64,000 bases of DNA from an uncultured archaeon (GTDB lineage: Archaea; Iainarchaeota; Iainarchaeia; Iainarchaeales; 1-14-0-10-31-34). Below the pieces are notes generated by a model, which had not been told where the DNA came from, did not search any database, and saw only the letters and a program-made list of their open reading frames with translations. The DNA is taken from positions 10,900 to 74,899 of the forward strand of contig CAZSOZ010000003.1 in the NCBI GenBank assembly GCA_964608675.1, written 5' to 3'. Made by a program: the position numbers and the translations under genes. The first letter of the stretch is position 1, and each line of letters opens with the position of its first letter. Shown in pieces: positions 3,001-33,181 of this stretch.

Positions 3001-3216
3001 TGAAGTGGTTGTTTGAAGAATGCCTTCTCCTGACAAAATAAAATAAATTCCGGTTAAAAGTGCAAGCAGTAAAATCAAAAAAACAGGAAAGGAAGGAATG
3101 CTTTTTGATTCAATAAAATCAATGGCTTTATATACAGGAATTCCTGCTTTATCCAAGCCATCCATTAAATCATAATATTTTTCTTCTATTCCGGAATAAA
3201 TCTCTTTTACACCCAT
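1..3216 (-). CDS. Giant surface protein paralog (partial, continues beyond window start). It has an N-terminal cytoplasmic module plus signal-anchor and beta-sandwich repeats.
   Basis: No complete minus-strand ORF is listed for 1-3216 although there is a continuous reading frame. Hand translation from the ATG at 3214-3216 gives MGVKEIYSGIEEKYYDLMDGLDKAGIPVYKAIDFIESKSIPSFP followed by a hydrophobic stretch. This N-terminus is clearly paralogous to that of the 2481-aa ORF (EIY..IE.K.Y..D.LE.KG.PVY..ID.IE.K.IP.FP then a TM segment). Confidence 0.6.
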   Translation of the reverse strand, partial: MGVKEIYSGIEEKYYDLMDGLDKAGIPVYKAIDFIESKSIPSFPVFLILLLALLTGIYFILSGEGILQTTTSFELTVNDGSVPVEDAVITYYVNEEKKIVQTNEDGKAELNVVIGKEFTVSAEKTGFKKETKKFDAEKKSGTIELNPSVMQPIEVQLLGKGNELLEEELTVRFNCSQNNEWNETITVNTGSTQLNDVPADCGTILAEPFGKTCEDCDFTADTSLIKIYLEENETEKGIIDFTVMDKQGNLLNGIEAMALPIGSTIEENSCSTYNGMCSAEVSFGTYYIRTTDWTGKWKDYDSREQTTTLTINSNNMNQEFEIVLEEGIIGEIKIKVKNIEGNPIENALIKLFKDGAELRDKRTDSSGNAIFKVSEQINYSASVTHPDYLNSDSKNVLPSADYFEFVLKEATPSNKRAINVSVVDEKGQPVENTKIFLKDALTLNIVGEEKITGFDGKAVFERVPEGEYIIRAEKRGFEGKDSRKITIKEKEPQDITITLNIGQGTLDVIILDKEKQAIQSATVKVIDYFTGKEYARYSTDTEGKKSFNIRADKKVFLEVNESGHSNYISAPIQMFDGTEEKTIVLEDSINSFAVKLEELKLNGETLEDETVNQGKTYKAVFKLMIPKGVYSNEAGIHIRTGEDTKNQNNTMEKDDLYIKKISAANAKIIKGTTFNPNTGYGIDSSHLTSGNAKWTNVIFNDVQEGVYEIETVIQVKDLLSGSPLEIAYRGWVIDSGYQRDPFDEELQETESTTAKQALYAETRHEPLKIGASSLCSENFCTSFTVRDIANATRTNIVDSFPAKISSNYEIEFNIISINEKSYSNSELAIEGKGLELNSYEIEGIQKNAEGKIIIPTRTISKGQKISGKINFTTKSEGTNRIDFSLFGESLNLGKEKILFNPIRAEVAMAKNMKIETSPKNLLPFIQNNLLVHLAEKQENDLIEATVKIKKDNEIISIGKTDSKGIYAYSFEPLNAGTEIIITAEKAGFNPTEKIIQVKENIVSFMPTEIKETFNAKKPERRITRDITLKNITEMPLTIIGVELTDSFKGLVDAEISDFTETNLLIGSEEQIL

Positions 3217-3322: not shown

Positions 3323-5116
3323 TCAGCTTAAAGGTTTGCATCCTCCGGTGCTTTCTCCTATGCCGAAATCAGTTCCTTCGCTGAATTCATATCTTTCACA
3401 AATCCATTCATTTCTGTTGCAGGAATTGTTTGTTTCATTTTGCAGTCCGCAGGTTGTGCTGTTAACAAAAAATTGTTTTGTTTGATGAAATTTTTCTTCA
3501 GTTGAATTTGGAGTAAATTTGTTGTCAACAATTTTAATTACATAAACTGGTTCTTTTGTTTTGTCTATAATATAATTCTTGTTTTTTTCTTTGAATGCAA
3601 TGTTCACTTCAACTTTTGTTACTTCAGTGCAGGTTCCGTAATCTGCACTATAGTTGTCTGAAAAATCAGAAAAGCAAGGGCTGTCTTCTGAAGTCTTCTG
3701 AATTACTTCTCCTTGTTCATTTAATCCTATTCCATATTTTCCCCATGCATTCCCCCATTCCATAGGACAGCTTCCATCAACATTTGCTCCATAAGAATAT
3801 TCTGTTGCATTATCTAATTGAATGCTGTTAATTCCTTTTTGATTTATTTTAACTGAATTTCTTGCCCAGTCTTCTATTTTAATTGAAACAGAACTTTGGT
3901 TTGAAAGCATGCATGAAAAAGCAGAAGAAGAAATATTTTCTGCTTCATCCAAAATGAATTCATCTTTTGTTCCGTTTACTTTTGGGTCAAGATAATTTTC
4001 TGATGAATAATTGTTTCTTATAATTTCGCATAATCTTCTTGCAGTTAATTCCCTTAAAGCCTGCTGTTCGCTTGTTCTGTTTCCCATTAAAAATTCATCT
4101 ATTACAGGAATTTGCTGGTCTGCTTCTTGTTCAGTGCACATTCCTCTTTCTGCCATGCTTGAACTGCAAAAAATTTCTGTTTGTGTTTGATAAGCGTTTC
4201 CTGAAGGGCAGGGAACATCCATGTTTTTTTTTAGCGGAGAAACAAAAGGATTTTTTCTTATATTGCAGTACCCTGGATCACAGAAACCTAATTTCATTTC
4301 TTCTATTTCGTTGTGAATTCTTAAAGAAAACAACCCGTAATTTTCTTTCCATGTGTTTGCTTCTTCTTTTTCAAACTCTAATGCCAGTGCTCTGGATTCA
4401 GCCAAAGCTTTAAACAACCTGATTGGAATATAAATTTTTATGTTTCCTTTTGGAAAAATTGATTCCTGCAAAACCCTGTCAGTTCTTGGATTATAAATTT
4501 TTATTTGTGGAAAAGATTCATAGGTTTCCTCACTTATTTCTTCTATTTTTAAATTCAAATAAAATGTTCCAATACAATTTTTTGGGTTTCCGTTTTCGCA
4601 TTCAACTACTTCAAAAAAATTTCCTGAATCAACGCTTTTTTCAAACATTTTTTGCAGGGATTCAGTTAAAATTCTTCTCTGTTCTTCTGAAGTTTTTCCT
4701 TTATGAACTATTGAAATTTCATAAGGTCCCACAAACCTTTTTTGAGGCCATGATTCAATTAATGCATTGCTGATTTGCTCTGTGAATGCTGTTCCTCCTC
4801 CTGCTCCAAAAAATCTTTCTCCAAAGCGTTCTTTCATTTCATTAAAAGAGTCATCCAAAGGATAAATTGTTATTTCATTTTGTTGTACAAAAAAATATGA
4901 TTCCATTGTTTTTCTTAAAGAATAATTAAATGTCTGCAGTGCTTCTGCCCTGCTTAAGTCTGCCATTGCCTGCATTTCTGCTTGTTCTTCTATATTAGAA
5001 ATTAATTCTGTTCTGTCTCTTTCTGCTTTAATCATTGTCTGAACAATCATTGCAGTCAATAAAATTAATACAAATGAAACCAAAGCAGTAAACAAAGTGA
5101 ATCCTTTTTTATTCAT
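3323..5116 (-). CDS. Large (597 aa) prepilin-like secreted protein with a class-III/type-IV-pilin-like leader
   Basis: The N-terminus MNKKG|FTLFTALVSFVLILLTAMIVQ is a short basic leader, then Gly, then a roughly 20-aa hydrophobic segment, which is the prepilin-peptidase substrate architecture. A large Cys-containing hydrophilic body follows. The gene lies between the two giant paralogs. Confidence 0.6.
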   Translation of the reverse strand: MNKKGFTLFTALVSFVLILLTAMIVQTMIKAERDRTELISNIEEQAEMQAMADLSRAEALQTFNYSLRKTMESYFFVQQNEITIYPLDDSFNEMKERFGERFFGAGGGTAFTEQISNALIESWPQKRFVGPYEISIVHKGKTSEEQRRILTESLQKMFEKSVDSGNFFEVVECENGNPKNCIGTFYLNLKIEEISEETYESFPQIKIYNPRTDRVLQESIFPKGNIKIYIPIRLFKALAESRALALEFEKEEANTWKENYGLFSLRIHNEIEEMKLGFCDPGYCNIRKNPFVSPLKKNMDVPCPSGNAYQTQTEIFCSSSMAERGMCTEQEADQQIPVIDEFLMGNRTSEQQALRELTARRLCEIIRNNYSSENYLDPKVNGTKDEFILDEAENISSSAFSCMLSNQSSVSIKIEDWARNSVKINQKGINSIQLDNATEYSYGANVDGSCPMEWGNAWGKYGIGLNEQGEVIQKTSEDSPCFSDFSDNYSADYGTCTEVTKVEVNIAFKEKNKNYIIDKTKEPVYVIKIVDNKFTPNSTEEKFHQTKQFFVNSTTCGLQNETNNSCNRNEWICERYEFSEGTDFGIGESTGGCKPLS

Positions 5117-12688: not shown

Positions 12689-13282
12689 TTATATTTTGTT
12701 TTTAATGCTTTCAGGAATTCCTTTGACTGACAAATAATACCATGCAAAATAGTATCCTGCAATCAACACAAACAATGAAATCCTGAACAATAAATCGTGT
12801 GCTAATTCAATTGTCTGCAAATCTGTTTTTTTAATCAAAAAAACAGTAATAATTATTCTTGCAGTATTAAACAAAAAGGTTGTAATGCCTGCTCCGATTA
12901 CCCCGATTGCTTTTTTTTCTTTTGTTATTTCTCCTGTTGCAATTACTGCTGAAGCCAGCACAATGAATTCCATTAATCCAGTGCATAAATAACTAATTTG
13001 AATTGAATAATTTTCAAACAAAATTAAAACAGGTTCCTGAAAAACAATTTTTCCTCCGGTAAAAACTGCAACTGCTTTTGCAGTAATTAATTCAATCCAT
13101 TCCAAAGGAATAAATGAAATCAAAAAAGAAAGAAAAACATAAAAGAAAACCAGAATTAAAACAAACTTTCCTACCTGAACTATTTTTTTGTCCATTAAAT
13201 TTAATTTAATCAGCAAAGTATTAAATATTCTTTTTTTTATAATTTTTTGCATGGCTGGAGTAATTGATTCATTTGCATTCAT
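12689..13282 (-). CDS. Putative exosortase/archaeosortase-family polytopic membrane protein (short form)
   Basis: 197 aa with multiple TM segments. It has a Cys inside a TM-flanked motif (ISYLCTGLMEF) and a downstream FNTARIIITVFL (Asn..Arg) motif. These resemble the conserved Cys/Arg/Asn core of the exosortase/archaeosortase family. This is a motif-level resemblance only. The true start may be an internal Met, because the ORF as listed overlaps the divergent gene by about 95 bp. Confidence 0.45.
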   Translation of the reverse strand: MNANESITPAMQKIIKKRIFNTLLIKLNLMDKKIVQVGKFVLILVFFYVFLSFLISFIPLEWIELITAKAVAVFTGGKIVFQEPVLILFENYSIQISYLCTGLMEFIVLASAVIATGEITKEKKAIGVIGAGITTFLFNTARIIITVFLIKKTDLQTIELAHDLLFRISLFVLIAGYYFAWYYLSVKGIPESIKNKI

Positions 13283-14246
13283 TCTAAAAAAAAGCTTTGA
13301 CTTAAAGTTATGGCTTTATTTTCTGCTTATTTTAATTATTGCAGTTGTTTCTTTTGGAATACTCTTTTTTGTTTTTCTTTTTATTGGATTTCTTTTATTT
13401 TTAATTCTGCAGTTTTCGCTTGCAGGATTTTTGTTTTATTTTATTTTTTTTATTTTGTTTTTGGTTTCAATGTTTGCTTTGGGTTCAGCGGTAAATGGAG
13501 TTTTATTGAATTTTGCAAGAGATTACATTCATTCAGGCAAAATCGATTTAGGGCTGGCTTTCAATAAAACTAAACCAAGAATTTTCACTGCAGTTAAAGT
13601 TGAGGTAATTGTCGGAATTTTCTTTTTTGCAGTTTTTTTATTATTTTTTCTTCCGTTTATTTTTTCTTTAATTGAATTAATTAATACTGCTTCTCTTAGA
13701 TTTCTGATTGCGCCTAATTCATCTCAAATGCTTTCCCTGTTTTTTTCTGTTTTAGGTTCTCTTTTGCTGGGTTTTCTTTTGTATGGAATTTTCAGCATTA
13801 TTGTTGCTCCGTTCAGCATTCTTTACAGGCAGATTCCTTTTTTTGAATCCCTTTCAGCGGTTGATTCAATTAAAAGAGCAGTTTTTCTTGCAAGAAAAAA
13901 TTATTTTTCTAATTTAGGTTTTGCGGTTCTGGCTTTCATTATTACAGGTGTTTTTACTTTTGTTTACATGATTTTTTCTTTTGTTTTAGCTTTAACTAAT
14001 GCAAGTCAGATTATATTTCTGATAATACTTGCAATTTTTTTAAGAATAATTTTAGAGTTTGCTTTTGTTTTGTGGACTACGGTTTTTAATTATCTGGTTT
14101 ATGTTAAAGTTTATGAATTCAATTCAACTGAACAAAAATTTTTTCAGCCGAAAACTTTTCTAAAAACAAAACCTAAAACAAAATCAAAATCATTAAAGCC
14201 AAAGCCTTCAACAAAAACCAGAGTCAAGCCCGGCACAAAAAAATAA
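13188..14246 (+). CDS. Polytopic membrane protein with a Lys/Pro-rich C-terminal tail, function unknown
   Basis: 352-aa ORF with about 8 hydrophobic segments and a tail KTKPKTKSKSLKPKPSTKTRVKPGTKK. It is the first gene of the plus-strand pilus operon. The start is uncertain (Met22 at 13251 is possible). Confidence 0.5.
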   Translation: MSIKFNLISKVLNILFFIIFCMAGVIDSFAFILKKSFDLKLWLYFLLILIIAVVSFGILFFVFLFIGFLLFLILQFSLAGFLFYFIFFILFLVSMFALGSAVNGVLLNFARDYIHSGKIDLGLAFNKTKPRIFTAVKVEVIVGIFFFAVFLLFFLPFIFSLIELINTASLRFLIAPNSSQMLSLFFSVLGSLLLGFLLYGIFSIIVAPFSILYRQIPFFESLSAVDSIKRAVFLARKNYFSNLGFAVLAFIITGVFTFVYMIFSFVLALTNASQIIFLIILAIFLRIILEFAFVLWTTVFNYLVYVKVYEFNSTEQKFFQPKTFLKTKPKTKSKSLKPKPSTKTRVKPGTKK

Positions 14247-14305: not shown

Positions 14306-16585
14306 ATGAAGATTGGAAACTTTGAAGTAGGAGATTATGCTGTTAAGGAATCAGGCGGAAAACGTCATTTAATTTTTGACTGCAGAAACTGCGTTTATTC
14401 TTCTTCTTTGACTGATGATAAAGCATGCCGTTATCATGTTATTTCTATTTTATCTCAGATTGAAGCAGACTTAATTGTTTTGGCTGAAGTTTATGAAAGA
14501 GTTTATAACCAGCATCAAACTAAATTGCTTAAAGAGATTGCAGAACTTATCCCGCGATTTGAATTAGAAAACTTGTGGGGTGTTGAAAATTTAGGTGAAT
14601 CCGGAACCGAATGCGAAAAATTGTTTGGATTAAGGCATGATCTTTTAGTAAAAATTTCGCATGACTTAATTGCATTTGATCCAATACTTTCTTACATTAC
14701 TTTGCTTTCCGAAATACAAAAAGAAAAACAAAAAATGAAAAACGAGAATTATGCTTCCTGTTCCAAACCATTCATTCAAACTTTATTGTATTTAAAACAG
14801 GAATTCGAAAAAACTGAATTGATTTCAAAAGCAAAACAAATTATTGCAAAATTAGAGGAAATGCCTGACACAAAACAATTATATTACTCTTTTTTTGAAG
14901 CTCAAGTCAAGCCTTCTTTTATTGGTTCAAGATTAATGTTTGAAAAAGCAGAAACACTTGAATTATTGGATGAATATTCTGTTAAAAAATCCAACGTGCA
15001 AATTTTTAAGCATCCGAACAAAGTTGAAAAACTTTATTTTTTGAATCCGCCTGAATATACTTTGCCTCCGGAAAAATATTTTGTGTTAAGCAAAACAAAA
15101 GAAATTGTTGCCACTTATCAGCCCGGCAAAACTTCTTTGTCAACTATTGCCAAAAGCAGAAAATATTTTGAAAGAGTTTATGAATCAACTATTTTTGATA
15201 TTGCAAAACAAAACAATATTTCTTTGTCTAAAGAAGAAGTAAAAGAATTAAGTGAAATTGTTGCAAGATATACTGTTGGTTACGGAATCCTTGAAATTTT
15301 GTTGAGCGACAGAAATCTTACAGATATTTATTTGGATTCTCCGATAGGACAAAAACCTTTGTATGTTGTTCACTCTGAATACGGCCAATGCCAAACCAAC
15401 ATTTTGTATACAGAAGATGAAGCTGAATCAATGGTTTCAAAATTAAGGGCTATGTCAGGCAGACCGTTTGATGAAGCGCATCCTGTTTTGGATTACGATT
15501 TGCAGGAACTGGAAACAAGAACTGCTGTAATTGGAAAACCTTTGGCTCCTGATGGAATTGCTTTTGCTTTTCGTTTGCATAAAATGACCCCATGGACTCT
15601 TCCTCAGTTTATTGACAAAAAATTTATTTCTCCTTTGGGAGCAGGCCTTTTGTCTTTTTTTATTGACACTCAGTCAACTATGCTTGTAACTGGTTCTCGT
15701 GGTTCTGGAAAAACTTCTTTGCTTGGAGCATTAATTCTTGAAATTTTGCAGAATGCAAGAATTATTGTTCAGGAAGACACTTTGGAAATTCCTGTTTCTT
15801 ACATGAAGGAAATAGGCTTTAATATTCAGAGAATGAAAACAAGGGCTCCAATTGGTACAGCTAAAAGCGAAACAGAAGTTTCTCCTGAAGATGCTTTAAG
15901 AACTGCGTTAAGGCTTGGTGATTCTGCTTTGGTTTTAGGTGAAGTTCGTTCAACTGAAGCAAGAGTTTTGTATGAAGCAATGCGTGTTGGTGCAGCAGGA
16001 AACATTGTTTTGGGAACAATTCATGGTGATTCAGCTTACAGTGTATGGGACAGAGTTGTAAATGACTTGAATGTTCCAAGCACTTCTTTTAAGGCAACTG
16101 ATATAGTTGTTGTTGCCCGTCCAATTCGTTTTGGGGGCTCTCTGGAAAGGCAGAGAAGAGTAGTTCAATTAACTGAAATAAAAAAGGAATGGATTGAAGA
16201 CCCTTTGCATGAAGGAGGCCTGCTTGATTTAATGCTTTTTGATGCATCAAAAAACAAGCTTGAATTACAGGAAGACAATTTAAAGGAATCAACTTTGTTT
16301 GATAGAATCCATAAAACTTATGGTTTGAGTATGACTGAAATGTGGGATTCAATTAAAATGAATTCAAATTCCAAGGCTTTTATGGTTGAATTAAAAAACA
16401 AACTGGGTTTCCCTGAATTGCTTGAAGCAGAAAACACTGTTCCTGCAGTCAACAAATTAATGTTAATGAAACAAAACCAGCTTGAAGAAAACGGTTCAGT
16501 TGACTTTGAAGAAGTTTTAGGCAAATGGAAATTCTGGTATAAAAATGATTTCGTTAAAAGACTGCATTCAAGAAGGAAAAAATAA
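14306..16585 (+). CDS. FlaI/GspE/VirB11-family secretion ATPase (type IV filament assembly ATPase) with a roughly 350-aa N-terminal extension
   Basis: Walker A is LVTGSRGSGKTSLLGALI, the Asp box/Walker B is IIVQED and GEVRSTEA matches the GEIRG-like motif. The N-terminal extension carries a Cys cluster, CRNCVYSS..DKACRYH. An ATG start follows an AGG Shine-Dalgarno. Confidence 0.85.
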   Translation: MKIGNFEVGDYAVKESGGKRHLIFDCRNCVYSSSLTDDKACRYHVISILSQIEADLIVLAEVYERVYNQHQTKLLKEIAELIPRFELENLWGVENLGESGTECEKLFGLRHDLLVKISHDLIAFDPILSYITLLSEIQKEKQKMKNENYASCSKPFIQTLLYLKQEFEKTELISKAKQIIAKLEEMPDTKQLYYSFFEAQVKPSFIGSRLMFEKAETLELLDEYSVKKSNVQIFKHPNKVEKLYFLNPPEYTLPPEKYFVLSKTKEIVATYQPGKTSLSTIAKSRKYFERVYESTIFDIAKQNNISLSKEEVKELSEIVARYTVGYGILEILLSDRNLTDIYLDSPIGQKPLYVVHSEYGQCQTNILYTEDEAESMVSKLRAMSGRPFDEAHPVLDYDLQELETRTAVIGKPLAPDGIAFAFRLHKMTPWTLPQFIDKKFISPLGAGLLSFFIDTQSTMLVTGSRGSGKTSLLGALILEILQNARIIVQEDTLEIPVSYMKEIGFNIQRMKTRAPIGTAKSETEVSPEDALRTALRLGDSALVLGEVRSTEARVLYEAMRVGAAGNIVLGTIHGDSAYSVWDRVVNDLNVPSTSFKATDIVVVARPIRFGGSLERQRRVVQLTEIKKEWIEDPLHEGGLLDLMLFDASKNKLELQEDNLKESTLFDRIHKTYGLSMTEMWDSIKMNSNSKAFMVELKNKLGFPELLEAENTVPAVNKLMLMKQNQLEENGSVDFEEVLGKWKFWYKNDFVKRLHSRRKK

Positions 16586-18918
16586 TGAGAAGAACCCAGA
16601 AAAAAGAAAAAGAAGTTTATGAAACCAGAAAAGTTTCTCCTGGAGAATTATATAAGGGAATTTCTTATTCAGGAACAAAATTTGGTGAAGAAACAAAATT
16701 ATTAAAAAAAAAAGAGCATTGGTTTGTTGTTTTCTGCAAAAAATTTTTTAGTTCATTTCCTTCTCTTGGAAAAGGAGCAAAATATTCAAAAAAATACAGG
16801 GAAGCCATTGATTTCCTTGGATGGAATCTTTCTCCTGAAGAATTTTCTGCTTCAATTAAACTGACAATGATTGCTTCAATTATTTTTGCTTTTATTTTGT
16901 TTGTTTTAGCAATTTCTTTTGGGGCAGTTGAAGCAATAACAGAGTTTACCGGAAGCTCTTTGCTTGCTTATTTTTATCTTTTTGTTCCTTTAATTTTGAT
17001 TGTTTATTTTGCAGTAAATTTTGTTCAAAAGTTTCCGTTGAATGAAGCAAAAGTTGAACAAGTTCGTGCATTAACTTTTGTTCCTGAAATCATGGGGTAC
17101 ATGATTATGTCCATGAAGCTTGTTCCTAATTTAGAGAAAGCAGTTGAGTTTGCTGCAACACACGGAAGAGGAAAAATTGCAGAAGACCTTAAAAAAGTTA
17201 TTTGGAATGTTGAACTTGGCATTCATAAATCTTTAAGCGAAGGCTTGGATGAAATGGCTTACAATTGGGGAAAATTTTCTGATGAATTTAAGTCTTCTTT
17301 GATGATGATTCGTGCTTCGGTTTTGGAAACCAGTGAAGCAAAACGCTATCAGATTCTTGACAAAACAATGGAGCAAACCCTTGAAAGCATTAAAACCAAA
17401 ATGGAGCAGTATGCAAGAGAATTATCTCAGCCTACAGTTGTATTGTTTTATTTAGGTGTTTTACTGCCTTTAATTTTAATTATTGTTTTGCCTGTTGGCT
17501 CTGCTTTTTCCGGACAAGGTTTAGCGAGGCCGGAAATCCTTGTTTTAATTTATAATATTTTAATTCCTGGCGCAACATTTGTTTTTGCTTTGAATGTTTT
17601 AAGAAACAGGCCTCCAACTTATGAGCCTCCGAAAATTCCTGATGGCCATCCTTCTCTTCCAAAAAAATATCAAATGAAATTAGGAAAAAATTTTGTTGAT
17701 TTAAGGTTTGTAATGCTTGCAGTTTTAATTGCTGGAGCAGGCTTGACTTGGTTTTTTCATTCCAACGGAATAGTGTTTGAATTTGATCAAGAAAAGCTTA
17801 CTATTATTCCTCCTGACAGAACAAAAGAATTTGTTTTGGAAAGAGTTAACCGGCCTGAAAACTGGTATAACGAAGATGGTCCTTTTGTCCAGCAGTTGAT
17901 TTCAAGAGGAGTTGAACTTCAAGCCGCACAAAAAACTGTTGCTGCAGAAAAAGCAATGTTTTTTATGAAACCTGAAAATGATATTACTCCATACAATTTA
18001 ATTTTTGGTTCGCTTTTAACTTTTGCTTTAATGTTTTTCATTTATTTTAATTTCACTTCAATTTACAAAAGAAAAGTTCAGGAAGAAACAATGGAAATGG
18101 AATCAGAATTTAAAGACTCCCTTTATGTTATTGCTTCCCGAATGGGAGAAAATAAGCCGGTTGAAGAATCTTTAAGGCATGCACAAAATTTTCTGCCTGA
18201 TTATGTTATTTCCCAAAAGCTTTTCGGTAAAACCGTTGACAACATTAATTTATTAGGCATGCCTTTGGAGAACGCTGTTTTTGACCCGAATTATGGTGCA
18301 TTAAAACATAATCCTTCTAATATAATCCGCAGTTCAATGAAATTGCTGGTTGATTCAGTTAAAATGGGAGTTGAAGTTTCTGCCAGAACTTTAATGTCTC
18401 TTTCACTTCAGCTTAAAAACTCTGAAAAAGTAAACAAAACTCTTTCAATTTTAGTTAAAGAAATTACGTCCACTATGAAAACAATGGCAGTGTTTATTGC
18501 ACCGGTTGTTTTGGGTATCACGACTGCTTTGCAGAAAGTTGTAATGATTTCTATGGGTTCAATTATTTCTGAAGGATCCCTTGATTCTGTTTCAGGAAAC
18601 ATAAGCAACGTGGATTTAGCCGGAGCAAATTTGGGTTCAGGGTTATCCAGCCAGCTGAGTGCTTTTTCTTCTTCTATTTCAAGTTTTAAAATGGATCCCG
18701 AAGTTTTTGCTTCGCTTGTTTCTCCTGCTCAATTCACTTTTATTATTGCTTTGTATGTAATTGAAATAGTAATTATTTTAACTTACTTTACTTCCAAACT
18801 GGAAGAAGATAATAATGTTCTGGCTACTTTGAGGATTGCAAAAGCTTTGCCGGTTGCTTTGACTGTTTTTGTTCTGGCAATCATTGTTTCAAATTCAGTT
18901 GTTGGAGGCTTCATGTAA
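16585..18918 (+). CDS. FlaJ/TadC-like polytopic platform protein (two T2SSF domains fused, plus a C-terminal extension)
   Basis: 777 aa. Two T2SSF-like soluble domains (VPEIMGYMIMSMKLVPNLEKAVEFAA..., YVIASRMGENKPVEESLRHAQNFLP...) are each flanked by TM helices. The ATG overlaps the ATPase stop (TAATG), which is translational coupling. The C-terminal third has extra TM segments and Ser/Gly-rich stretches. Confidence 0.8.
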   Translation: MRRTQKKEKEVYETRKVSPGELYKGISYSGTKFGEETKLLKKKEHWFVVFCKKFFSSFPSLGKGAKYSKKYREAIDFLGWNLSPEEFSASIKLTMIASIIFAFILFVLAISFGAVEAITEFTGSSLLAYFYLFVPLILIVYFAVNFVQKFPLNEAKVEQVRALTFVPEIMGYMIMSMKLVPNLEKAVEFAATHGRGKIAEDLKKVIWNVELGIHKSLSEGLDEMAYNWGKFSDEFKSSLMMIRASVLETSEAKRYQILDKTMEQTLESIKTKMEQYARELSQPTVVLFYLGVLLPLILIIVLPVGSAFSGQGLARPEILVLIYNILIPGATFVFALNVLRNRPPTYEPPKIPDGHPSLPKKYQMKLGKNFVDLRFVMLAVLIAGAGLTWFFHSNGIVFEFDQEKLTIIPPDRTKEFVLERVNRPENWYNEDGPFVQQLISRGVELQAAQKTVAAEKAMFFMKPENDITPYNLIFGSLLTFALMFFIYFNFTSIYKRKVQEETMEMESEFKDSLYVIASRMGENKPVEESLRHAQNFLPDYVISQKLFGKTVDNINLLGMPLENAVFDPNYGALKHNPSNIIRSSMKLLVDSVKMGVEVSARTLMSLSLQLKNSEKVNKTLSILVKEITSTMKTMAVFIAPVVLGITTALQKVVMISMGSIISEGSLDSVSGNISNVDLAGANLGSGLSSQLSAFSSSISSFKMDPEVFASLVSPAQFTFIIALYVIEIVIILTYFTSKLEEDNNVLATLRIAKALPVALTVFVLAIIVSNSVVGGFM

Positions 18919-18993: not shown

Positions 18994-19500
18994 ATGGTTA
19001 ATCAAAAAGGACAGTCTTTTGAAGTATTTAATTTGTTGATTGGAGCAATTCTTGCTTTGGCTATTCTTGTAATTATTATTTCTATTATTAATTATCTTGA
19101 AGAAATCAAAGTTGATTCAAGCCTTGAAGCAATTGAACAAAAATTAAAGAATGCTTCTCAGTCTCCTGATGGACGTATTTTTGTTTCAAATGAAGTTGTT
19201 ATTCCAAAAGATTACAGTTTTAATTCAAAGCAGGTTTCAAAGATTTTGAATATTTCAGAGGAATGCGTTGAATTTGATTTTCCTCAGAACGCGAAATGGG
19301 CTGTTTATCCAAACAGTCCTGAACGAAACCTTGTTTTTTTTCCTAAGCGAATTGAAACAAATTTTTATGTTGTCTGCCAGTCTTCTGATGAAAGACTTTA
19401 CCATAGTGATTTTTCTTTAATGCAGTGCCCTGCAGATTCGTGTGTTGAATTCTGCTGTCTGCTTTCTTTTGGAGTGAATCCTAAAACAGCTAATGAATGA
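18994..19500 (+). CDS. Class-III signal peptide (type IV) pilin-like protein, Cys-rich
   Basis: The N-terminus MVNQKG|QSFEVFNLLIGAILALAILVIII is the archaeal prepilin motif (KG|Q plus hydrophobic helix). GGTGG Shine-Dalgarno lies 5 nt upstream. There are 7 Cys in the globular part. Confidence 0.75.
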   Translation: MVNQKGQSFEVFNLLIGAILALAILVIIISIINYLEEIKVDSSLEAIEQKLKNASQSPDGRIFVSNEVVIPKDYSFNSKQVSKILNISEECVEFDFPQNAKWAVYPNSPERNLVFFPKRIETNFYVVCQSSDERLYHSDFSLMQCPADSCVEFCCLLSFGVNPKTANE

Positions 19501-19559
19501 TTTCTTAAAACTAAAGCTTTAAATATTTCTTTGGTTTTCTTTTTAGTGGTGATGTTTTT

Positions 19560-20099
19560 ATGTTAAACCAAAAGGGACAGGAGTTCAGTGTATTCAAATT
19601 ATTAATTTCTGCTATTGTTGCAATAGTTGTTTTGACTTTGCTTTTGAATATTCTTGGAATAGTTGATTTTAATCCAAACACTGATCCGGCAGAAGCAGCA
19701 AAGAATCTTTTGACAAGCGTGGATAACTCTAATTTTCAGGAAAAGATAAGCGACAGAATTGATTTTACTTCTGAGAACAGCATTAATTCAAAAGCTTTAT
19801 CTGATGCTACGGGTTTATCTGAAAACCAAATTTGTTTGCTTGTATCAGAAGAACTTACTGACAGAGGTTTTACTTCAAACGGAAAACTTATAACTTATGC
19901 CAACAATAGTTCTATTAGAGTTAAATTAGCAGGCATTTGTGCTGAAGCATCTGATTTCAGGGAAAACGATTTTTTATCATCATATACTAAAACCATGGCT
20001 GAAGAAGTTCCTGCAGATCTTGGGGATTGTAGTTTTGTTTCAGAATCAGATTCCACTGGAAGAGCATGTTTGATGGTTTTAATTCGTTCAAATGAATAA
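19560..20099 (+). CDS. Class-III signal peptide pilin-like protein
   Basis: The N-terminus MLNQKG|QEFSVFKLLISAIVAIVVLTLLL is paralogous to the preceding pilin. GGTGA Shine-Dalgarno lies upstream. Confidence 0.75.
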   Translation: MLNQKGQEFSVFKLLISAIVAIVVLTLLLNILGIVDFNPNTDPAEAAKNLLTSVDNSNFQEKISDRIDFTSENSINSKALSDATGLSENQICLLVSEELTDRGFTSNGKLITYANNSSIRVKLAGICAEASDFRENDFLSSYTKTMAEEVPADLGDCSFVSESDSTGRACLMVLIRSNE

Positions 20100-20204
20100 A
20101 TTTTTAAGAAAAGTTTTAGCAAAATGTACAGCGTAAAAAACCGTACTCTCAAACTTATTTTTTTTTAATTAACTTTAAATACCAGTTTAGCCTTATTTTT
20201 TGTT

Positions 20205-20354
20205 ATGGAATTATTAAAGGAAAATAAAGCGCAAAGCGAATGGAATTCTGTTTACATGCTGATAGTTTTGATTATTGCTGTACTGTTGTTGATTACTGTT
20301 ATTAAGCCGATGTTTGAAAAAAGCCAGCAGATAAACAAGCCGATAGGAGGCTGA
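20205..20354 (+). CDS. Small (49 aa) single-TM ORF inside the pilin operon
   Basis: Hand-found ORF below the 60-aa track cutoff: MELLKENKAQSEWNSVYMLIVLIIAVLLLITVIKPMFEKSQQINKPIGG, ending in TGA. Its end overlaps the AGGAGG Shine-Dalgarno of the next pilin gene. Confidence 0.25.
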   Translation: MELLKENKAQSEWNSVYMLIVLIIAVLLLITVIKPMFEKSQQINKPIGG

Positions 20355-20358
20355 TTTT

Positions 20359-20907
20359 TTGTTTTGCAGAGGACAAGAGGAAGCGCCTTTTCAGTTGCTA
20401 GTTGCAGTTATTTTAATGACTTTTGTTATTATTGTGGGCTTGAATGCAATGAATGAAGCTTCAAGAGAAAAATGTTTTAATAATACAGAAAAATTATTGA
20501 ATGACTTAAAGCAGTCAATTGAAAAAACTGCTATTTATAAACAGCCGTCTTCTATTAATTTTAATCCTCCTGGATGCACTAAAAATGAATCTTTTGTTTT
20601 AATTAAATCAGATGAATCAAGAATTTGCAGTGAACTTTGCATGAATTCATCAAGCAGTTGTATTTTGTTAAGATACAAAACTGTTGAAATAACTGAAATT
20701 CAGGATAAATGCATTAACATTTCTTATGACACTCAATTCAGACATTATGCTGATGACTGGGATTCCGGATGCATGCATCTTGAAGGATACACTGGAATTT
20801 CAATTGATTCACAGGGTTTTATTCCGGGAGTTTATCAGTTTTTGTATTCTGAAACTTCAGGAACAACAAGCCCTGTTGTGTGTGTTTATATTAAAGAAAA
20901 AAATTGA
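20359..20907 (+). CDS. Class-III signal peptide pilin-like protein, Cys-rich
   Basis: The N-terminus MFCRG|QEEAPFQLLVAVILMTFVIIVGL, with 10 Cys in the globular domain. AGGAGG Shine-Dalgarno lies upstream. Confidence 0.7.
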   Translation: MFCRGQEEAPFQLLVAVILMTFVIIVGLNAMNEASREKCFNNTEKLLNDLKQSIEKTAIYKQPSSINFNPPGCTKNESFVLIKSDESRICSELCMNSSSSCILLRYKTVEITEIQDKCINISYDTQFRHYADDWDSGCMHLEGYTGISIDSQGFIPGVYQFLYSETSGTTSPVVCVYIKEKN

Positions 20908-20917
20908 GGTAATTTGA

Positions 20918-21565
20918 ATGCTGGGTTTTACTTTAAGCAAAATAAATTTGTTGATTTTTGTAGTTTCAGTTTTTTCAATTATTTTGTTTTTTATTTTTAG
21001 TTTTTCAACTATTTTAATTGAAAACATTGCAAATGATTATGTAAGAATTCATGCACAGGATGCTTTTACTTTGGTTGGCTCGCCTTCTTTGTGTGCCTCA
21101 CAAATTCATTATTTAAAAGATTCACTTGAATCTAATTCAGGGAATTCAGGAAGAGGATTATATTATATTATGGACATAAAGAAAGCTGAAGGAAATGAAA
21201 TGAATAAAATGATTTTTGCTTTGGCTCCAAGGAAAACTCCTGAACAGTTTATGGCTGCTGCTTCTTTTGACACTGAAGCAGACATAAAATTTTTTGATTT
21301 TCAAGAATTAACCAGCAATAACTGTGATGAATTTAATGCTCCTGCTTGTTCTTCAATTAATCTTTATGATTCAAATATTTTGCTTGACCCTCAGGCTTTG
21401 CTTCCATCTAATGCATACGTTCTATTAAAAGAAGTTGTGTCAGGAGAAACAACTGTTTATGTTATTCCCTGCAGTAACAGGCAGGGTTCTGATTGCAGGG
21501 TGCTGTTTGAAAGAGCAGGCAATAAAATTCGTGAAGAGGGATTTAATTGTTCTTATGCAGATTGA
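20918..21565 (+). CDS. Pilin-like protein with a short G|FTL-type leader
   Basis: MLG|FTLSKINLLIFVVSVFSIILFFIF is a hydrophobic N-terminal helix after a Gly. This is the same G|FTL leader type as the 597-aa protein. It lies in the same tightly packed operon. Confidence 0.55.
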   Translation: MLGFTLSKINLLIFVVSVFSIILFFIFSFSTILIENIANDYVRIHAQDAFTLVGSPSLCASQIHYLKDSLESNSGNSGRGLYYIMDIKKAEGNEMNKMIFALAPRKTPEQFMAAASFDTEADIKFFDFQELTSNNCDEFNAPACSSINLYDSNILLDPQALLPSNAYVLLKEVVSGETTVYVIPCSNRQGSDCRVLFERAGNKIREEGFNCSYAD

Positions 21566-22047
21566 ACCAGAAAGCATATCTTGGCCCGATTGGAGATGAC
21601 CTTCCTTCTTTGATTCCTTTAATGTTTGCTTTGGTGATTTTCTTTTCTTCTTTTTATTCTGCAGTAAATGTTTATAATGACAGGACAGTTGATTTTGAAA
21701 ACGATATCGCGGTCGTGCAAATTTCTGCTTCTTTAAGGGGAACAGGATTAGTTTCTTCTTTGGAGCAGTTTCATAATTCCTGCAATGCATTAAATGTCAG
21801 ACAGCCTTATTTTTCTGCGGGCTTAATTGACTTAAACAAAGATGTTAATATATTTGATTTAAGGGAAAATTATTTGTTTGAAGGCAGTGAATTATATGAA
21901 TGTTCTAATGTTGTTCCTGAAAAAATTTTAACCAAAGAAAAAGTCCTTCAGCCTAATTCAAAGGTTGTTGTAAGAACTTATCCGTTAATTCTTCAAAGAA
22001 ACGAAGTTTCTTTGCCTGTAAAGCTGGTGGTTGTTGCATGGGAATAA
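21562..22047 (+). CDS. Pilin-like protein (start ambiguous)
   Basis: The track ORF starts at TTG 21547. A second in-frame TTG at 21562 overlaps the upstream stop (TTGA) and gives (M)NQKAY|LGPIGDDLPSLIPLMFALVIFF, echoing the MxNQKG leaders of pilins 1 and 2. A hydrophobic helix follows. Confidence 0.5.
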   Translation: MNQKAYLGPIGDDLPSLIPLMFALVIFFSSFYSAVNVYNDRTVDFENDIAVVQISASLRGTGLVSSLEQFHNSCNALNVRQPYFSAGLIDLNKDVNIFDLRENYLFEGSELYECSNVVPEKILTKEKVLQPNSKVVVRTYPLILQRNEVSLPVKLVVVAWE

Positions 22048-22757
22048 TGAATTCAAGAGGACAGGCTGCAATAACTGATGCATTGTTTTTTTTGGTTATT
22101 GTAATGTCTTTGGTTGTATTTCTTTTCTTTTTTACTTCTCAGTACGGCAGAAGTGTAGGGGAATATTCTGATTCAAAGTATAGCTCTGATTATGCTTCCA
22201 GTGCACTGAAAACTGTTTTATATTCTTCTTTTGCAAGAGACGGTCTTCCTTTGTGTATTGAAGAAAGCTGTTCAAAGGAAGTCGATTTTTTGATTGCTGC
22301 AATTAAAGAAGATTATGCTGACGACAAAAACATTAATTATTTTAAGGATGAATTAACTGAATCAATTAAATTGGTTATGAAGCCTGTAAGAAATTCTTTT
22401 GATTTCATGCTGTTCATTAAAATTTCTTCTGATTCTGTTCCTAAATACCCTTATTTTTTTATTTCAAGAAAAGAGTTTTCTTATCAGGATCAAGGGCCTT
22501 TTGTTTCTGATGTTCAGTCTGAAGAAAAAAATTATTACTGTAATGTTTCTCAGAGTTCTTCTTTTAATCAAAATAAAATAGATGAATTTATTGTTTTTAC
22601 CGGAGTAAAAGGACTGGCTGTTTCTTCTTTGTGGTTTCCTTTGGTTAATACAATCGAATACGATAAAGGAGAAATTGATTTGATTTTATGGAATCCCAAA
22701 GATTTTAATGAAAGCCAAAAAGTGTTTAAAGAATTGGACTGCCAGCTGATTGAATAA
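22038..22757 (+). CDS. Class-III signal peptide pilin-like protein
   Basis: MGIMNSRG|QAAITDALFFLVIVMSLVVFLFFF. An alternative ATG at 22047 overlaps the upstream stop (TAATG). The body is Cys-containing. Confidence 0.65.
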   Translation: MGIMNSRGQAAITDALFFLVIVMSLVVFLFFFTSQYGRSVGEYSDSKYSSDYASSALKTVLYSSFARDGLPLCIEESCSKEVDFLIAAIKEDYADDKNINYFKDELTESIKLVMKPVRNSFDFMLFIKISSDSVPKYPYFFISRKEFSYQDQGPFVSDVQSEEKNYYCNVSQSSSFNQNKIDEFIVFTGVKGLAVSSLWFPLVNTIEYDKGEIDLILWNPKDFNESQKVFKELDCQLIE

Positions 22758-30635: not shown

Positions 30636-30734
30636 TATAACCCCTTTTTTTAATAAAAAAGGCTTTTAGTCTTTATTAAAGTATGTTTTTTTTTCCAGCA
30701 AGTTTTTTAAAGATCTGAATTTATTATTATTCTT

Positions 30735-31382: not shown

Positions 31383-31392
31383 ATTCATTCAA

Positions 31393-32388: not shown

Positions 32389-32393
32389 TTTTT

Positions 32394-33179: not shown

Positions 33180-33181
33180 TT

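What the first reader, a model, noticed from the sequence alone, without database searches (positions are those of the whole stretch)
12689..13282. Short exosortase/archaeosortase-like membrane protein heading the giant-adhesin operon, with a candidate substrate carrying a motif-TM-KKKK C-terminus
The 197-aa polytopic protein has a TM-embedded Cys (YLCTG) and a downstream N..R motif (FNTARI). These are reminiscent of the catalytic Cys/Arg/Asn core of exosortase/archaeosortase enzymes. In the same window the 1490-aa secreted protein ends with ...NPFNLPSLPESLLGLSLFFVSLIACMFLIQFSVKKKK-stop (28510-28626). That is a textbook tripartite sorting signal: short motif, TM helix, basic cluster. The giant proteins themselves lack such a C-terminus. 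Therefore the sortase-like enzyme may process the 1490-aa protein or other proteins encoded elsewhere. Alternatively it could be a divergent member with a different role in this locus.
Basis: inference. Interest (0 to 1): 0.6.

Follow-up and report, generated by a model that had tools for sequence, protein, structure and literature searches.

The report
Dedicated archaeosortase with LPSLPE-tailed substrate
A small membrane enzyme of the archaeosortase family in an uncultured DPANN archaeon (Iainarchaeota) is genetically paired with one 1490-residue secreted protein whose C-terminal tail (NLPSLPE motif, membrane helix, lysines) looks like the enzyme's cleavage signal; it is a previously unnamed branch and signal of a known kind of protein-sorting system, not a new kind.

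Summary
The ORF at 12689-13282 is on the minus strand. Its true start is probably Met30 (13195), which gives 168 aa. It passes the curated cutoffs of TIGR04178 and Pfam PF09721, but no named Art/Xrt subfamily model. Cys100, Asn139, Arg142, His162 and Arg167 are invariant in 34 homologues at 32-68% identity.

The 1490-aa protein (24154-28626, +) has an N-terminal signal peptide and ends in NLPSLPES, a TM helix and KKKK. NLPSLPE is the second most conserved 7-mer of the whole protein, and it is kept in orthologues only about 32% identical. An exhaustive profile search of 1.84 billion proteins found this tail only on this one family, always at the extreme C-terminus.

Both genes lie in one conserved ~30-kb cluster in Iainarchaeota. 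It comprises tandem giant proteins (~2000-2900 aa), a pilin-like protein and the sortase, facing a type IV pilus-like ATPase, a platform protein, six pilin-like proteins, a 178-aa membrane protein and the substrate.

My verdict is a dedicated (one enzyme, one target) archaeosortase system with a new signal flavour. The kind of system is known and the family is already generically annotated, so this is moderately interesting, not surprising. Cleavage, the anchor added afterwards and the link to the pilus machinery are all inferred.

The parts
12689..13282 (-). Archaeosortase/exosortase-family membrane protein. The ORF from the first ATG is 197 aa. The likely true CDS is 12689-13195 (168 aa, start Met30).
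   Evidence: ORF. TIGR04178 32.9 bits vs cutoff 23. PF09721 27.4 vs 25.7. Homologues 160-190 aa starting at Met30. AF2 model pLDDT 88, pTM 0.73, helical membrane fold with a small beta-meander before the Cys.
12782..12985 (-). Putative active-site region: Cys100 (12983-12985), Asn139 (12866-12868), Arg142 (12857-12859), His162 (12797-12799), Arg167 (12782-12784).
   Evidence: All five are invariant in 34 homologues at 32-68% identity. They lie inside the stretch (residues 95-181) matched to TIGR04178. The Cys-to-Arg spacing is 42 aa, against 41 in ArtA (Cys173/Arg214; PMC9263693).
24154..28626 (+). 1490-aa secreted protein, the predicted sole substrate. No known domains.
   Evidence: ORF. No Pfam or NCBIfam hits. 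Orthologues of about 1470-1530 aa. Always the last gene of the conserved cluster.
24154..24225 (+). Predicted Sec signal peptide (MNKVNVFWSAFIISLLLNVPLFYA|VSS).
   Evidence: Read directly from the sequence. Orthologues have equivalent N-termini ending in ...FAFA or ...ALA. No signal-peptide predictor was run.
28522..28542 (+). Signature motif NLPSLPE (residues 1457-1463), abutting the TM helix with no spacer.
   Evidence: L, P, S, P and E are invariant in 11 full-length orthologues. The 7-mer ranks 2nd of 1484 for conservation while the linker before it varies. It is unique in the six-frame translation of the window.
28546..28623 (+). C-terminal TM helix (LLGLSLFFVSLIACMFLIQF), then SV and the KKKK cluster. 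The stop codon is at 28624-28626.
   Evidence: Hydropathy. The basic tail is conserved in character (K/R-rich) but not in sequence.
23613..24149 (+). 178-aa polytopic membrane protein, always immediately upstream of the substrate gene (4-bp gap). Role unknown.
   Evidence: Conserved adjacency in 11 loci. Not related to the sortase (hhalign probability 0.6%), and only Pro, Gly and Tyr residues are invariant.
13188..14246 (+). Polytopic membrane protein (ORF 352 aa; the likely start is the ATG at 13251), first gene of the divergent pilus-like operon.
   Evidence: ORF. No family hit. Homologues sit next to the sortase in L002, L003, L009, L010 and L013. Unrelated to the sortase.
14306..16585 (+). 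T2SSE/VirB11-type secretion ATPase (759 aa).
   Evidence: PF00437 61.9 bits. Present in every related locus.
16585..18918 (+). T2SSF/TadC-like platform membrane protein (777 aa).
   Evidence: PF00482 23.8 bits, just under the 25.2 cutoff. About 80% identical orthologues. Used as the anchor to retrieve 19 loci.
18994..22757 (+). Six small proteins (168, 179, 182, 215, 166 and 239 aa). Most have class III (prepilin-like) N-termini: QKG|QSFEVF..., QKG|QEFSVF..., CRG|QEEAPF..., SRG|QAAITD..., each followed by a hydrophobic helix.
   Evidence: Sequences. Conserved order in all loci. No family hits. The pilin assignment is an inference from the N-termini and the context, in line with Makarova et al. 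(PMC6393860).
5151..12596 (-). Giant surface protein (2481 aa) 93 bp downstream of the sortase. It has an N-terminal TM anchor near residue 41, CarboxypepD_reg/Ig-like repeats and no C-terminal sorting signal.
   Evidence: A giant follows the sortase, directly or within a few genes, in 14 distinct related loci, but not in L002 or L027.
3323..5116 (-). 597-aa protein with a pilin-like N-terminus (MNKKG|FTLFTALVSFVLILL).
   Evidence: Weak ComGF/ComGE/ComGG pilin N-terminal hits, far below their cutoffs. Homologues in L001, L017, L023 and L028.
1..3216 (-). N-terminal part of a second giant paralogue (2501 aa in full), running off the left edge of the window. A third giant of at least 2194 aa follows on the source contig.
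   Evidence: locus L029.

Best explanation
The gene encodes an active, minimal (about 165 aa, about 5 TM helices) member of the exosortase/archaeosortase family of intramembrane cysteine proteases or transpeptidases (MEROPS C106). It represents an unnamed Iainarchaeota-specific subfamily. Its cognate and apparently only substrate is the 1490-aa protein encoded about 11 kb away in the same conserved cluster.

Proposed sequence of events:
1. The 1490-aa protein is exported by Sec through its N-terminal signal peptide.
2. It stays tethered by its C-terminal TM helix, with KKKK on the cytoplasmic side.
3. The sortase recognises NLPSLPE at the outer boundary of that helix. Its Cys100, at the outer end of a TM helix, works with Arg142 and His162/Arg167.
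4. The sortase cleaves off the helix and, by analogy with ArtA, replaces it with another anchor, most likely a membrane lipid.

Shown here: family membership, invariant residues, motif conservation, exclusivity of the signal and conserved gene linkage. Inferred: cleavage itself, the cleavage site, the membrane topology, the nature of the new anchor, and any hand-over to the neighbouring type IV pilus-like machinery.
For: - Family: TIGR04178 and PF09721 both above curated cutoffs. All 34 sampled members match TIGR04178.
- Residues: Cys, Asn, Arg, His and Arg are invariant over 32-68% identity. This matches the Cys/Arg/His set inferred for the family (bioRxiv 10.1101/2023.06.07.544157) and the Cys/Arg/Arg shown to be critical in ArtA (PMC9263693).
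- Model: confident helical membrane model, pLDDT 88.
- Substrate: signal peptide plus tripartite tail, with the motif abutting the TM helix without a spacer, as is typical of targets of membrane-embedded sorting enzymes (same preprint).
- Motif conservation: NLPSLPE ranks 2nd of 1484 7-mers for conservation, next to a variable linker. It is retained at about 32% overall identity.
- Exclusivity: a tail profile searched against 1.84 billion proteins gave 8 hits at E<=1e-3. All were at the extreme C-terminus and all were members or fragments of this one family. The motif occurs once in the window, against 0.008 expected. No other ORF carries it in about 450 kb of related loci.
- Linkage: in all 10 cases where a contig covers both positions, both genes are present. 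These are the window, L009, L012, L013, L014, L017, L020, L023, L026 and L005+L030. The last is a genome where the enzyme is 41% and the substrate 33% identical to the window's.
Against: - No experiment of any kind supports this.
- The enzyme and target are about 11 kb and 10 or more genes apart, not adjacent as in most described dedicated systems.
- The sortase family looks larger than the set of substrate orthologues recovered (at least 164 clusters at 90% identity, against about 16 proteins). That may only reflect the low sensitivity of the searches used for the substrate.
- In L028 a sortase of this family has no 1490-aa orthologue within 10 kb. A different secreted protein there carries a different TM-plus-basic tail.
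- I could not display the alignment to the TIGR04178 model or to ArtA. The equivalence of Cys100, Arg142 and His162 to the family's catalytic columns therefore rests on their position inside the matched stretch and on spacing.
- No PssA/PssD-type lipid-head-group genes, which ArtA substrates need, are in the window.
- The tail profile was built from one family, so its TM columns are biased toward that family. A paralogous signal sharing only the 7-residue motif would score near the significance limit.
Confidence: 0.65

Rival explanations
1. The protein is a genuine archaeosortase, but its real substrates are other proteins: proteins encoded elsewhere in the genome, or the giant proteins it is co-transcribed with. 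On this view the tail of the 1490-aa protein is a permanent TM anchor, and its conserved juxtamembrane motif serves another purpose such as a hinge, a glycosylation site or a partner-binding site.
For: The sortase is co-oriented with and immediately upstream of the giants in most loci, while the 1490-aa gene is 11 kb away. L028 lacks a nearby 1490-aa orthologue and has a different tailed protein. Only 64 kb of this genome was examined. ArtA can process a signal that is not at the C-terminus (PMC6098224).
Against: The two complete giants have no C-terminal TM helix, and the motif is absent from them and from every frame of the window. No other tripartite tail was found in about 450 kb of related loci. 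A plain anchor would not need an invariant NLPSLPE that outlasts 67% sequence divergence. The exhaustive search found the signal on one family only.
Confidence: 0.2
2. The sortase-like protein is a non-proteolytic accessory or assembly subunit of the type IV pilus-like apparatus, recruited from the exosortase fold. For example, it could be a membrane scaffold for pilin or giant-protein insertion.
For: Its tightest conserved linkage is to the pilus-like ATPase and platform operon. It is much smaller than the classical 8-TM exosortases. The cluster contains no recognisable prepilin peptidase.
Against: The complete candidate catalytic set (Cys, Arg, His, second Arg) is invariant across the family, which would not be expected after loss of catalysis. 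Small 150-190-aa members such as XrtG, XrtK, XrtX/Y and ArtD are accepted sorting enzymes in NCBIfam, and they are its nearest sub-threshold matches. A matching tripartite signal exists in the same cluster.
Confidence: 0.08
3. The protein is not an exosortase relative at all. On this view it is another polytopic protease (CAAX/Rce1-type, rhomboid or prepilin peptidase), or the resemblance is a chance effect of hydrophobic composition.
For: The scores are modest (33 and 27 bits) for a hydrophobic protein. No solved structure is available for fold confirmation.
Against: Both curated cutoffs are exceeded. All 34 homologues hit the same signature model, with a best E-value of 1.6e-12. Of the 25 most widely matched families listed for those members, 24 are exosortase/archaeosortase subfamilies, and the one exception is matched by only 2 of the 34. 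No CAAX, rhomboid or A24 peptidase family appears even at E<=10.
Confidence: 0.02

Closest known systems
Archaeosortase A (ArtA) with PGF-CTERM substrates, Haloferax volcanii
   Same: Same superfamily (TIGR04178/PF09721). Conserved Cys and Arg with near-identical spacing (42 aa here, 41 in ArtA). The substrate has a Sec signal plus a motif-TM-basic tail, with the motif abutting the helix. The substrate is a very large surface protein.
   Different: ArtA is about twice the size and serves several to dozens of PGF-CTERM proteins. Here the enzyme is about 165 aa, the motif is NLPSLPE and there is a single target family. The TIGR04125 (ArtA) model is matched by only 2 of 34 members, far below its cutoff. 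No PssA/PssD genes are nearby. Lipid attachment is unproven here.
Exosortase XrtA/EpsH with PEP-CTERM
   Same: Same superfamily. The signal contains a Pro-Glu core directly before the TM helix (PE in LPSLPE, compared with PEP).
   Different: That system is bacterial, has 8 TM helices, serves many targets and is linked to EPS loci. The PEP-CTERM model did not match the tail even at E<=10.
Small exosortase/archaeosortase subfamilies (XrtG, XrtX, XrtY, XrtH, XrtK, XrtM, ArtD; 150-190 aa)
   Same: Similar length and core architecture. These are the best sub-threshold matches.
   Different: No curated cutoff is reached (for example XrtG 26 bits against 103, XrtX about 21 against 170, ArtD 17-20 against 125). 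The taxon differs (Iainarchaeota) and so does the signal.
Lineage-specific archaeosortases already in NCBIfam (pacearchaeosortase NF033505, heimdallarchaeosortase NF045528)
   Same: They set the precedent for clade-restricted archaeosortase subfamilies in DPANN and Asgard archaea.
   Different: Only 9 and 7 of the 34 members match these models weakly (best E-values 2.4e-5 and 3e-4). This clade has no model of its own.
Dedicated one-to-one sorting systems (JDVT-CTERM/MrtJ; single-target rhombosortase/GlyGly-CTERM; dedicated Gram-negative sortase/LPXTG)
   Same: One enzyme and one target per genome, recognised by a conserved neighbourhood and not by many unrelated targets (bioRxiv 10.1101/2023.06.07.544157; PMC3237569).
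   Different: Those pairs are usually adjacent genes. Here the pair brackets a roughly 10-gene pilus-like operon. The enzyme families also differ (Rce1-like, rhomboid, sortase).
Rhombosortase followed by type II secretion of GlyGly-CTERM proteins (Vibrio)
   Same: It is a precedent for a C-terminal sorting enzyme acting upstream of a T2SS/T4P-type machine (described in bioRxiv 10.1101/2023.06.07.544157). It offers a possible logic for the sortase and pilus-like linkage seen here.
   Different: The protease family is different, the cell has a bacterial double membrane, and no genetic clustering of the two systems is described. The coupling proposed here is purely an inference.
Sortase A with LPXTG
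   Same: Tripartite signal beginning with LP. Convergent Cys/Arg/His chemistry.
   Different: The fold is unrelated. LPXTG signals have a spacer before the TM helix. The tail here has no TG. No sortase-family (PF04203) hit appeared among the window proteins scanned.

Membership tests
Exosortase/archaeosortase superfamily (TIGR04178; Pfam PF09721; MEROPS C106) | Matches the signature HMM above the curated cutoff | tested here: met
   TIGR04178 32.9 bits (33.5 from Met30) against cutoff 23. PF09721 27.4 against 25.7. All 34 homologues match TIGR04178.
Exosortase/archaeosortase superfamily | Near-invariant Cys, Arg and His (or a second Arg) in the conserved core | tested here: met
   Cys100, Arg142, His162 and Arg167 (plus Asn139) are invariant in 34 sequences at 32-68% identity. 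All lie within the HMM-matched stretch 95-181. Column-by-column equivalence to ArtA Cys173/Arg214/Arg253 was not displayed; only the spacing was compared.
Exosortase/archaeosortase superfamily | Polytopic, deeply membrane-embedded protein | tested here: met
   The AF2 model (pLDDT 88) is made of long helices. About five hydrophobic segments were found by hydropathy. Sidedness was inferred from the positive-inside rule only.
Exosortase/archaeosortase superfamily | Co-occurs with proteins bearing a cognate tripartite C-terminal signal and an N-terminal signal peptide | tested here: met
   The 1490-aa family carries the NLPSLPE-TM-basic tail. Both genes are present in 10 of 10 contigs that cover both positions. 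Whole-genome co-occurrence was not testable.
Exosortase/archaeosortase superfamily | Proteolytic removal of the C-terminal helix, with or without attachment of a new anchor | not testable with these tools
   This needs proteomics or genetics.
Named subfamilies (ArtA-F, XrtA and other Xrt letters, cyanoexosortases, pacearchaeosortase, heimdallarchaeosortase) | Score above the subfamily's curated cutoff | tested here: not met
   For the window protein the best scores were XrtG 26 against 103, XrtM 23.5 against 125, XrtK 21 against 55, XrtX 21 against 170 and ArtD 20 against 125. The best E-value of any member for any subfamily was 2.7e-14 (XrtX), still far below its 170-bit cutoff.
Known C-terminal sorting signals (PEP-, PGF-, PEF-, PIP-, VPXXXP-CTERM and others in NCBIfam) | The tail matches the signal's HMM | tested here: not met
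   No NCBIfam model matched the full protein or the isolated 50-aa tail at E<=10. HMMER's filters can drop very short matches, so this is not absolute.
Dedicated (one-to-one) sorting system, in the sense of Haft | A single target family, regularly encoded near the enzyme | tested here: met
   The tail profile hit only this family among 1.84 billion proteins. The cluster is conserved. The genes are nearby (about 11 kb) but not adjacent.
Archaeal type IV pilus-like system (context, not the finding itself) | T2SSE ATPase, T2SSF/TadC platform and proteins with class III signal peptides | tested here: inconclusive
   The ATPase passes its cutoff (61.9 bits). The platform is just below its cutoff (23.8 against 25.2). 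The pilin-like N-termini were read by eye. No prepilin peptidase was found among the window proteins scanned.

The most novel reading that the evidence does not exclude
The archaeosortase may be an integral part of a roughly 30-kb Iainarchaeota surface apparatus made of a type IV pilus-like motor, pilin-like proteins and three tandem giant proteins. In one genome a giant carries a C-terminal lytic transglycosylase domain. On this reading the sortase does not simply lipid-anchor the 1490-aa protein. It would transfer that protein's new C-terminus onto another component of the apparatus, such as a pilin-like subunit or a giant protein, or it would license the protein for extrusion by the pilus-like machine. 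That would be an archaeal, non-homologous counterpart of sortase-built pili or of the rhombosortase-to-T2SS relay, used for attachment to or attack on host cells.
Probability: 0.15. Interest if true: 0.7.

Novelty: new member of a known kind. Interest (0 to 1): 0.42.

Why it matters
It gives a specific, testable enzyme-substrate prediction in a phylum with no cultured representatives and very few recognisable surface proteins. It names one sorting enzyme, one motif (NLPSLPE) and one 1490-aa target. It adds an unnamed subfamily and a new signal flavour to the archaeosortase catalogue, so curated HMMs could be built for both. It also flags a large conserved cluster that is a strong candidate for the cell-cell interaction machinery of these DPANN archaea. 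Because there is only one substrate, the pair would be a clean minimal model for archaeosortase biochemistry, including whether the reaction is a one-step transpeptidation and what acceptor it uses. That question is still open even for ArtA.

Tried and rejected
- Fold confirmation of the sortase. The afdb50 library was unavailable. Foldseek against the PDB gave only noise, best E 0.4. A PDB sequence profile search found nothing. So no solved relative could be found, and family membership rests on HMMs.
- Structure of the substrate. The AF2 model of residues 291-1490 with 8 sequences gave pLDDT 51 and pTM 0.35, too poor to search. PDB sequence hits were noise. The nature of the 1490-aa protein remains unknown.
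- Known CTERM models. Nothing matched the tail.
- A cryptic second sortase. The 178-aa and 352-aa membrane neighbours were compared with the sortase profile by hhalign, with probabilities of 0.6% and 0.4%. Rejected.
- Internal or alternative copies of the motif in the giants or elsewhere in the window. None were found.
- Haft et al. 2012 (PMC3256604) is not in the held library. The family criteria were taken from Haft 2023 (bioRxiv), PMC3237569, PMC6098224 and PMC9263693.
- No paper in the held library mentions Iainarchaeota/Diapherotrites together with archaeosortase or exosortase.
- A whole-genome census of the signal was not possible, because loci are limited to 10 kb either side.
Full report
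**1. The observation**

An ORF spans exactly 12689-13282, but it is on the minus strand. The plus-strand reading of those coordinates is full of stops. The closest homologues are 160-170 aa and start at the equivalent of Met30. A start at 13282 would also overlap the divergent neighbouring gene. In related loci that intergenic gap is 40-95 bp. The likely CDS is therefore 12689-13195 (168 aa).

The 1490-aa ORF at 24154-28626 (+) ends ...NPFNLPSLPESLLGLSLFFVSLIACMFLIQFSVKKKK, as quoted. It begins with a signal-peptide-like N-terminus. LPS[LIMV]PE occurs once in all six frames of the window, against 0.008 expected. No other window ORF has such a tail. The window has 31% G+C.

**2. What the small protein is**

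- It passes the curated cutoffs of the exosortase/archaeosortase signature TIGR04178 (32.9 bits against 23) and of Pfam PF09721 (27.4 against 25.7).
- No named subfamily model comes close to its cutoff. The best are XrtG at 26 bits against 103, and XrtX, XrtK, XrtM, XrtY and ArtD at 17-24 bits against cutoffs of 55-170.
- No CAAX, rhomboid or prepilin-peptidase family appears, even at E<=10.
- A profile search found at least 164 clusters (90% identity) of homologues. Wherever a source names the organism, it is Diapherotrites (Iainarchaeota), Micrarchaeota or unclassified archaeon. Many already carry the generic NCBI name 'exosortase/archaeosortase family protein'.
- In 34 members at 32-68% identity the invariant residues include L-C-T-G, Glu, N..R-I, His, F-R and Trp.
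- The family's inferred triad is Cys/Arg/His (Haft, bioRxiv 10.1101/2023.06.07.544157). In ArtA, Cys173, Arg214 and Arg253 are experimentally critical (PMC9263693). The Cys-to-Arg spacing is 41 aa in ArtA and 42 aa here.
- AlphaFold2 gives a confident model (pLDDT 88, pTM 0.73) made of long helices with a small beta-meander just before the Cys.
- No solved relative was found by sequence or fold search for comparison, and afdb50 was unavailable.

**3. The candidate substrate**

The 1490-aa protein has no Pfam, NCBIfam or PDB relatives. Its orthologues are about 1470-1530 aa.

Every orthologue whose C-terminus was seen ends in [N/D/S]-L-P-S-[L/I/M]-P-E-[S/N/G/Q], followed directly by a hydrophobic helix and then a K/R-rich end. 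This includes sequences only 32-38% identical overall. In an 11-sequence alignment NLPSLPE is the second most conserved of 1484 seven-residue windows, although the linker just before it and the helix after it are variable. That pattern fits a recognition motif and does not fit a plain anchor. The motif abuts the helix with no spacer, which is characteristic of signals cut by membrane-embedded sorting enzymes (bioRxiv 10.1101/2023.06.07.544157). No known CTERM model matches it.

**4. One target or many?**

A 34-position profile of the tail (alignment A3) was searched exhaustively against 1.84 billion representative proteins. It gave 8 hits at E<=1e-3. Every match was at the extreme C-terminus. 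Five were full-length members of this family, and three were short fragments carrying the family's C-terminal domain. In about 450 kb of related loci no other ORF carries the motif.

This is therefore a dedicated one-to-one system. The caveat is that the profile's helix columns are biased toward this family, so a paralogous signal sharing only the 7-residue motif would score near the significance limit.

**5. Gene neighbourhood**

Loci were obtained from sortase homologues, from substrate homologues and from a platform-protein-anchored scan of GTDB genomes (19 loci, 18 titled as Iainarchaeota/Diapherotrites, Micrarchaeota or unclassified archaeal MAGs and one as a Chloroflexi bin). They were labelled by phmmer against the window's proteins.

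The conserved arrangement is:

- One strand: giant protein(s), the 597-aa pilin-like protein and the sortase.
- Divergent from these: polytopic membrane protein, T2SSE ATPase, T2SSF-like platform, then six small proteins, most with class III signal-like N-termini.
- Then a Lys-rich zinc-ribbon protein on the opposite strand.
- Then the 178-aa membrane protein and the 1490-aa protein.

The tally:

- Both sortase and substrate are present in all 10 contigs that cover both positions. One of these (L005+L030, a single contig) comes from a genome where they have diverged to 41% and 33% identity.
- The sortase is absent from its expected position in L015 (rearranged) and L018. Five further loci end too early to tell.
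- A giant follows the sortase, directly or within a few genes, in 14 distinct related loci, but not in L002 or L027.
- L028 is rearranged and has no 1490-aa orthologue within 10 kb.

The giants in this genome (2481 aa, 2501 aa and at least 2194 aa) share a conserved N-terminus with one TM helix near residue 40. The two complete ones have no C-terminal helix.

**6. Mechanism**

Shown:
- The protein is an archaeosortase-family member with an intact candidate catalytic set.
- One conserved, exclusive tripartite signal is encoded in the same cluster.

Inferred, by analogy with ArtA (PMC6098224, PMC9263693):
- The substrate is exported by Sec.
- It is tethered temporarily by the C-terminal helix, with KKKK inside the cell.
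- NLPSLPE is recognised at the outer membrane boundary. The positive-inside rule and the model's helix boundaries place Cys100, His162 and Arg167 at outer helix ends.
- The helix is cleaved off and replaced by another anchor.

What that anchor is cannot be told. The window has isoprenoid genes (cis-prenyltransferase, geranylgeranyl reductase) and a large glycan-synthesis cluster, but no PssA/PssD. The conserved embedding in a type IV pilus-like cluster suggests functional coupling. Rhombosortase substrates that then need the T2SS are a precedent (bioRxiv 10.1101/2023.06.07.544157). This coupling is speculation.

**7. Rivals**

- Other substrates, with the tail being a permanent anchor. This cannot be excluded without whole genomes, but the motif's conservation and exclusivity argue against it (confidence 0.2).
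- A non-catalytic pilus-assembly accessory. The invariant catalytic set makes this unlikely (0.08).
- Not an exosortase relative at all. The HMM results contradict this (0.02).

**8. Comparison and novelty**

It works like ArtA/PGF-CTERM and XrtA/PEP-CTERM, and it is a member of their superfamily. It belongs to none of the named subfamilies, and its signal matches none of the named CTERM domains. Its size resembles XrtG, XrtK, XrtX and ArtD. Its one-to-one logic resembles the JDVT-CTERM/MrtJ pair and single-target rhombosortase systems, although here the two genes bracket an operon of about ten genes and are not adjacent.

NCBIfam already holds clade-specific models (pacearchaeosortase, heimdallarchaeosortase), so another lineage-specific subfamily is expected and not surprising. 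No paper in the held library links Iainarchaeota to archaeosortases. Makarova et al. only note in general terms that DPANN type IV pilus loci contain unrecognisable pilins (PMC6393860).

**9. Verdict**

This is a new member of a known kind, with a clean and testable enzyme-motif-substrate prediction. Interest is moderate at 0.42. The surrounding apparatus is the more intriguing object.

Noticed in passing
L010:1498-5316 (+); ORFs of similar length in L008, L015 and L016: In some genomes the cluster's T2SSE ATPase is about 1270 aa instead of 760 aa, because an intein with a LAGLIDADG homing-endonuclease domain is inserted. In L010, Intein_splicing scores 82 bits, with LAGLIDADG_3 and Hint also matching.
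   Followed up: partly
L030:10760-19474 (+) (contig JAZDFD010000023.1): The giant protein downstream of the sortase in this genome (2904 aa) ends in a lytic transglycosylase (SLT) domain, 40.5 bits against a cutoff of 21.3 at residues 2746-2875. A peptidoglycan-cleaving domain in an archaeon hints that the apparatus targets bacterial cells. In L027 a 1014-aa Amidase_3/PKD protein lies near the sortase.
   Followed up: partly
L028:7727-9280 (+): In a rearranged cluster with no nearby 1490-aa orthologue, a 517-aa secreted protein two genes upstream of the sortase ends in ...TPEETAEPEQPLDMAMVDLGIVIIIVIVLIVFFIMKGKK. That is a Thr/Pro/Glu-rich linker, a TM helix and a basic tail. It may be a different substrate and signal for that lineage's sortase.
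   Followed up: no
L005:1296-2489 (= L030:3906-5099): A TnpB/Cas12f-like transposon-associated nuclease gene (397 aa) is inserted between the platform gene and the first pilin-like gene of the cluster in one genome.
   Followed up: no
window 29886-34597 (-): A second, smaller type IV pilus-like set (T2SSE ATPase of 471 aa and two T2SSF proteins) lies next to a PAC2-family gene just downstream of the substrate gene. The same arrangement is conserved in L005, L006 and L007. In L005 and L006 that ATPase carries 4Fe-4S ferredoxin domains.
   Followed up: no
window 22758-23558 (-): A 266-aa protein that is extremely Lys/Glu-rich and has a C-terminal zinc ribbon (CxxC...CxxC) is conserved on the opposite strand, between the pilin-like genes and the gene pair formed by the 178-aa membrane protein and the substrate. 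It appears in nearly all loci. Its role is unknown.
   Followed up: no
window 35985-62578: This stretch holds isoprenoid and glycan-carrier genes (cis-prenyltransferase, geranylgeranyl reductase, undecaprenyl-phosphate translocase-like) and a 1047-aa fn3/Ig surface protein. It also holds a large cluster of nucleotide-sugar genes (dTDP-rhamnose pathway, UDP-glucose dehydrogenase), a glycosyltransferase, a C-methyltransferase and a flippase. The cluster is probably for surface glycosylation.
   Followed up: partly
L018 (JAFCCG010000038.1): A contig carrying this archaeal pilus-like cluster is deposited in a MAG labelled 'Chloroflexi bacterium'. This is probably a binning error. The same locus also lacks the sortase at the expected position.
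   Followed up: no
L029:1866-2521 (Logan assembly of the same sequence as the window): The gene caller used for that assembly did not call the sortase gene at all, leaving a gap between the 331-aa membrane protein and the 2481-aa giant. Small hydrophobic sortases like this one can be missed in automated annotation.
   Followed up: no
window 5151-12596 (-), residues about 1985-2040 and 2370-2395: The 2481-aa giant has Gly/Ala-rich, moderately hydrophobic internal segments (for example AWGLVGYGIGSIAGFAITAAATGGTLGAGMIA) followed by a roughly 440-aa C-terminal region with no known domains. It is unclear whether these segments span a membrane.
   Followed up: no
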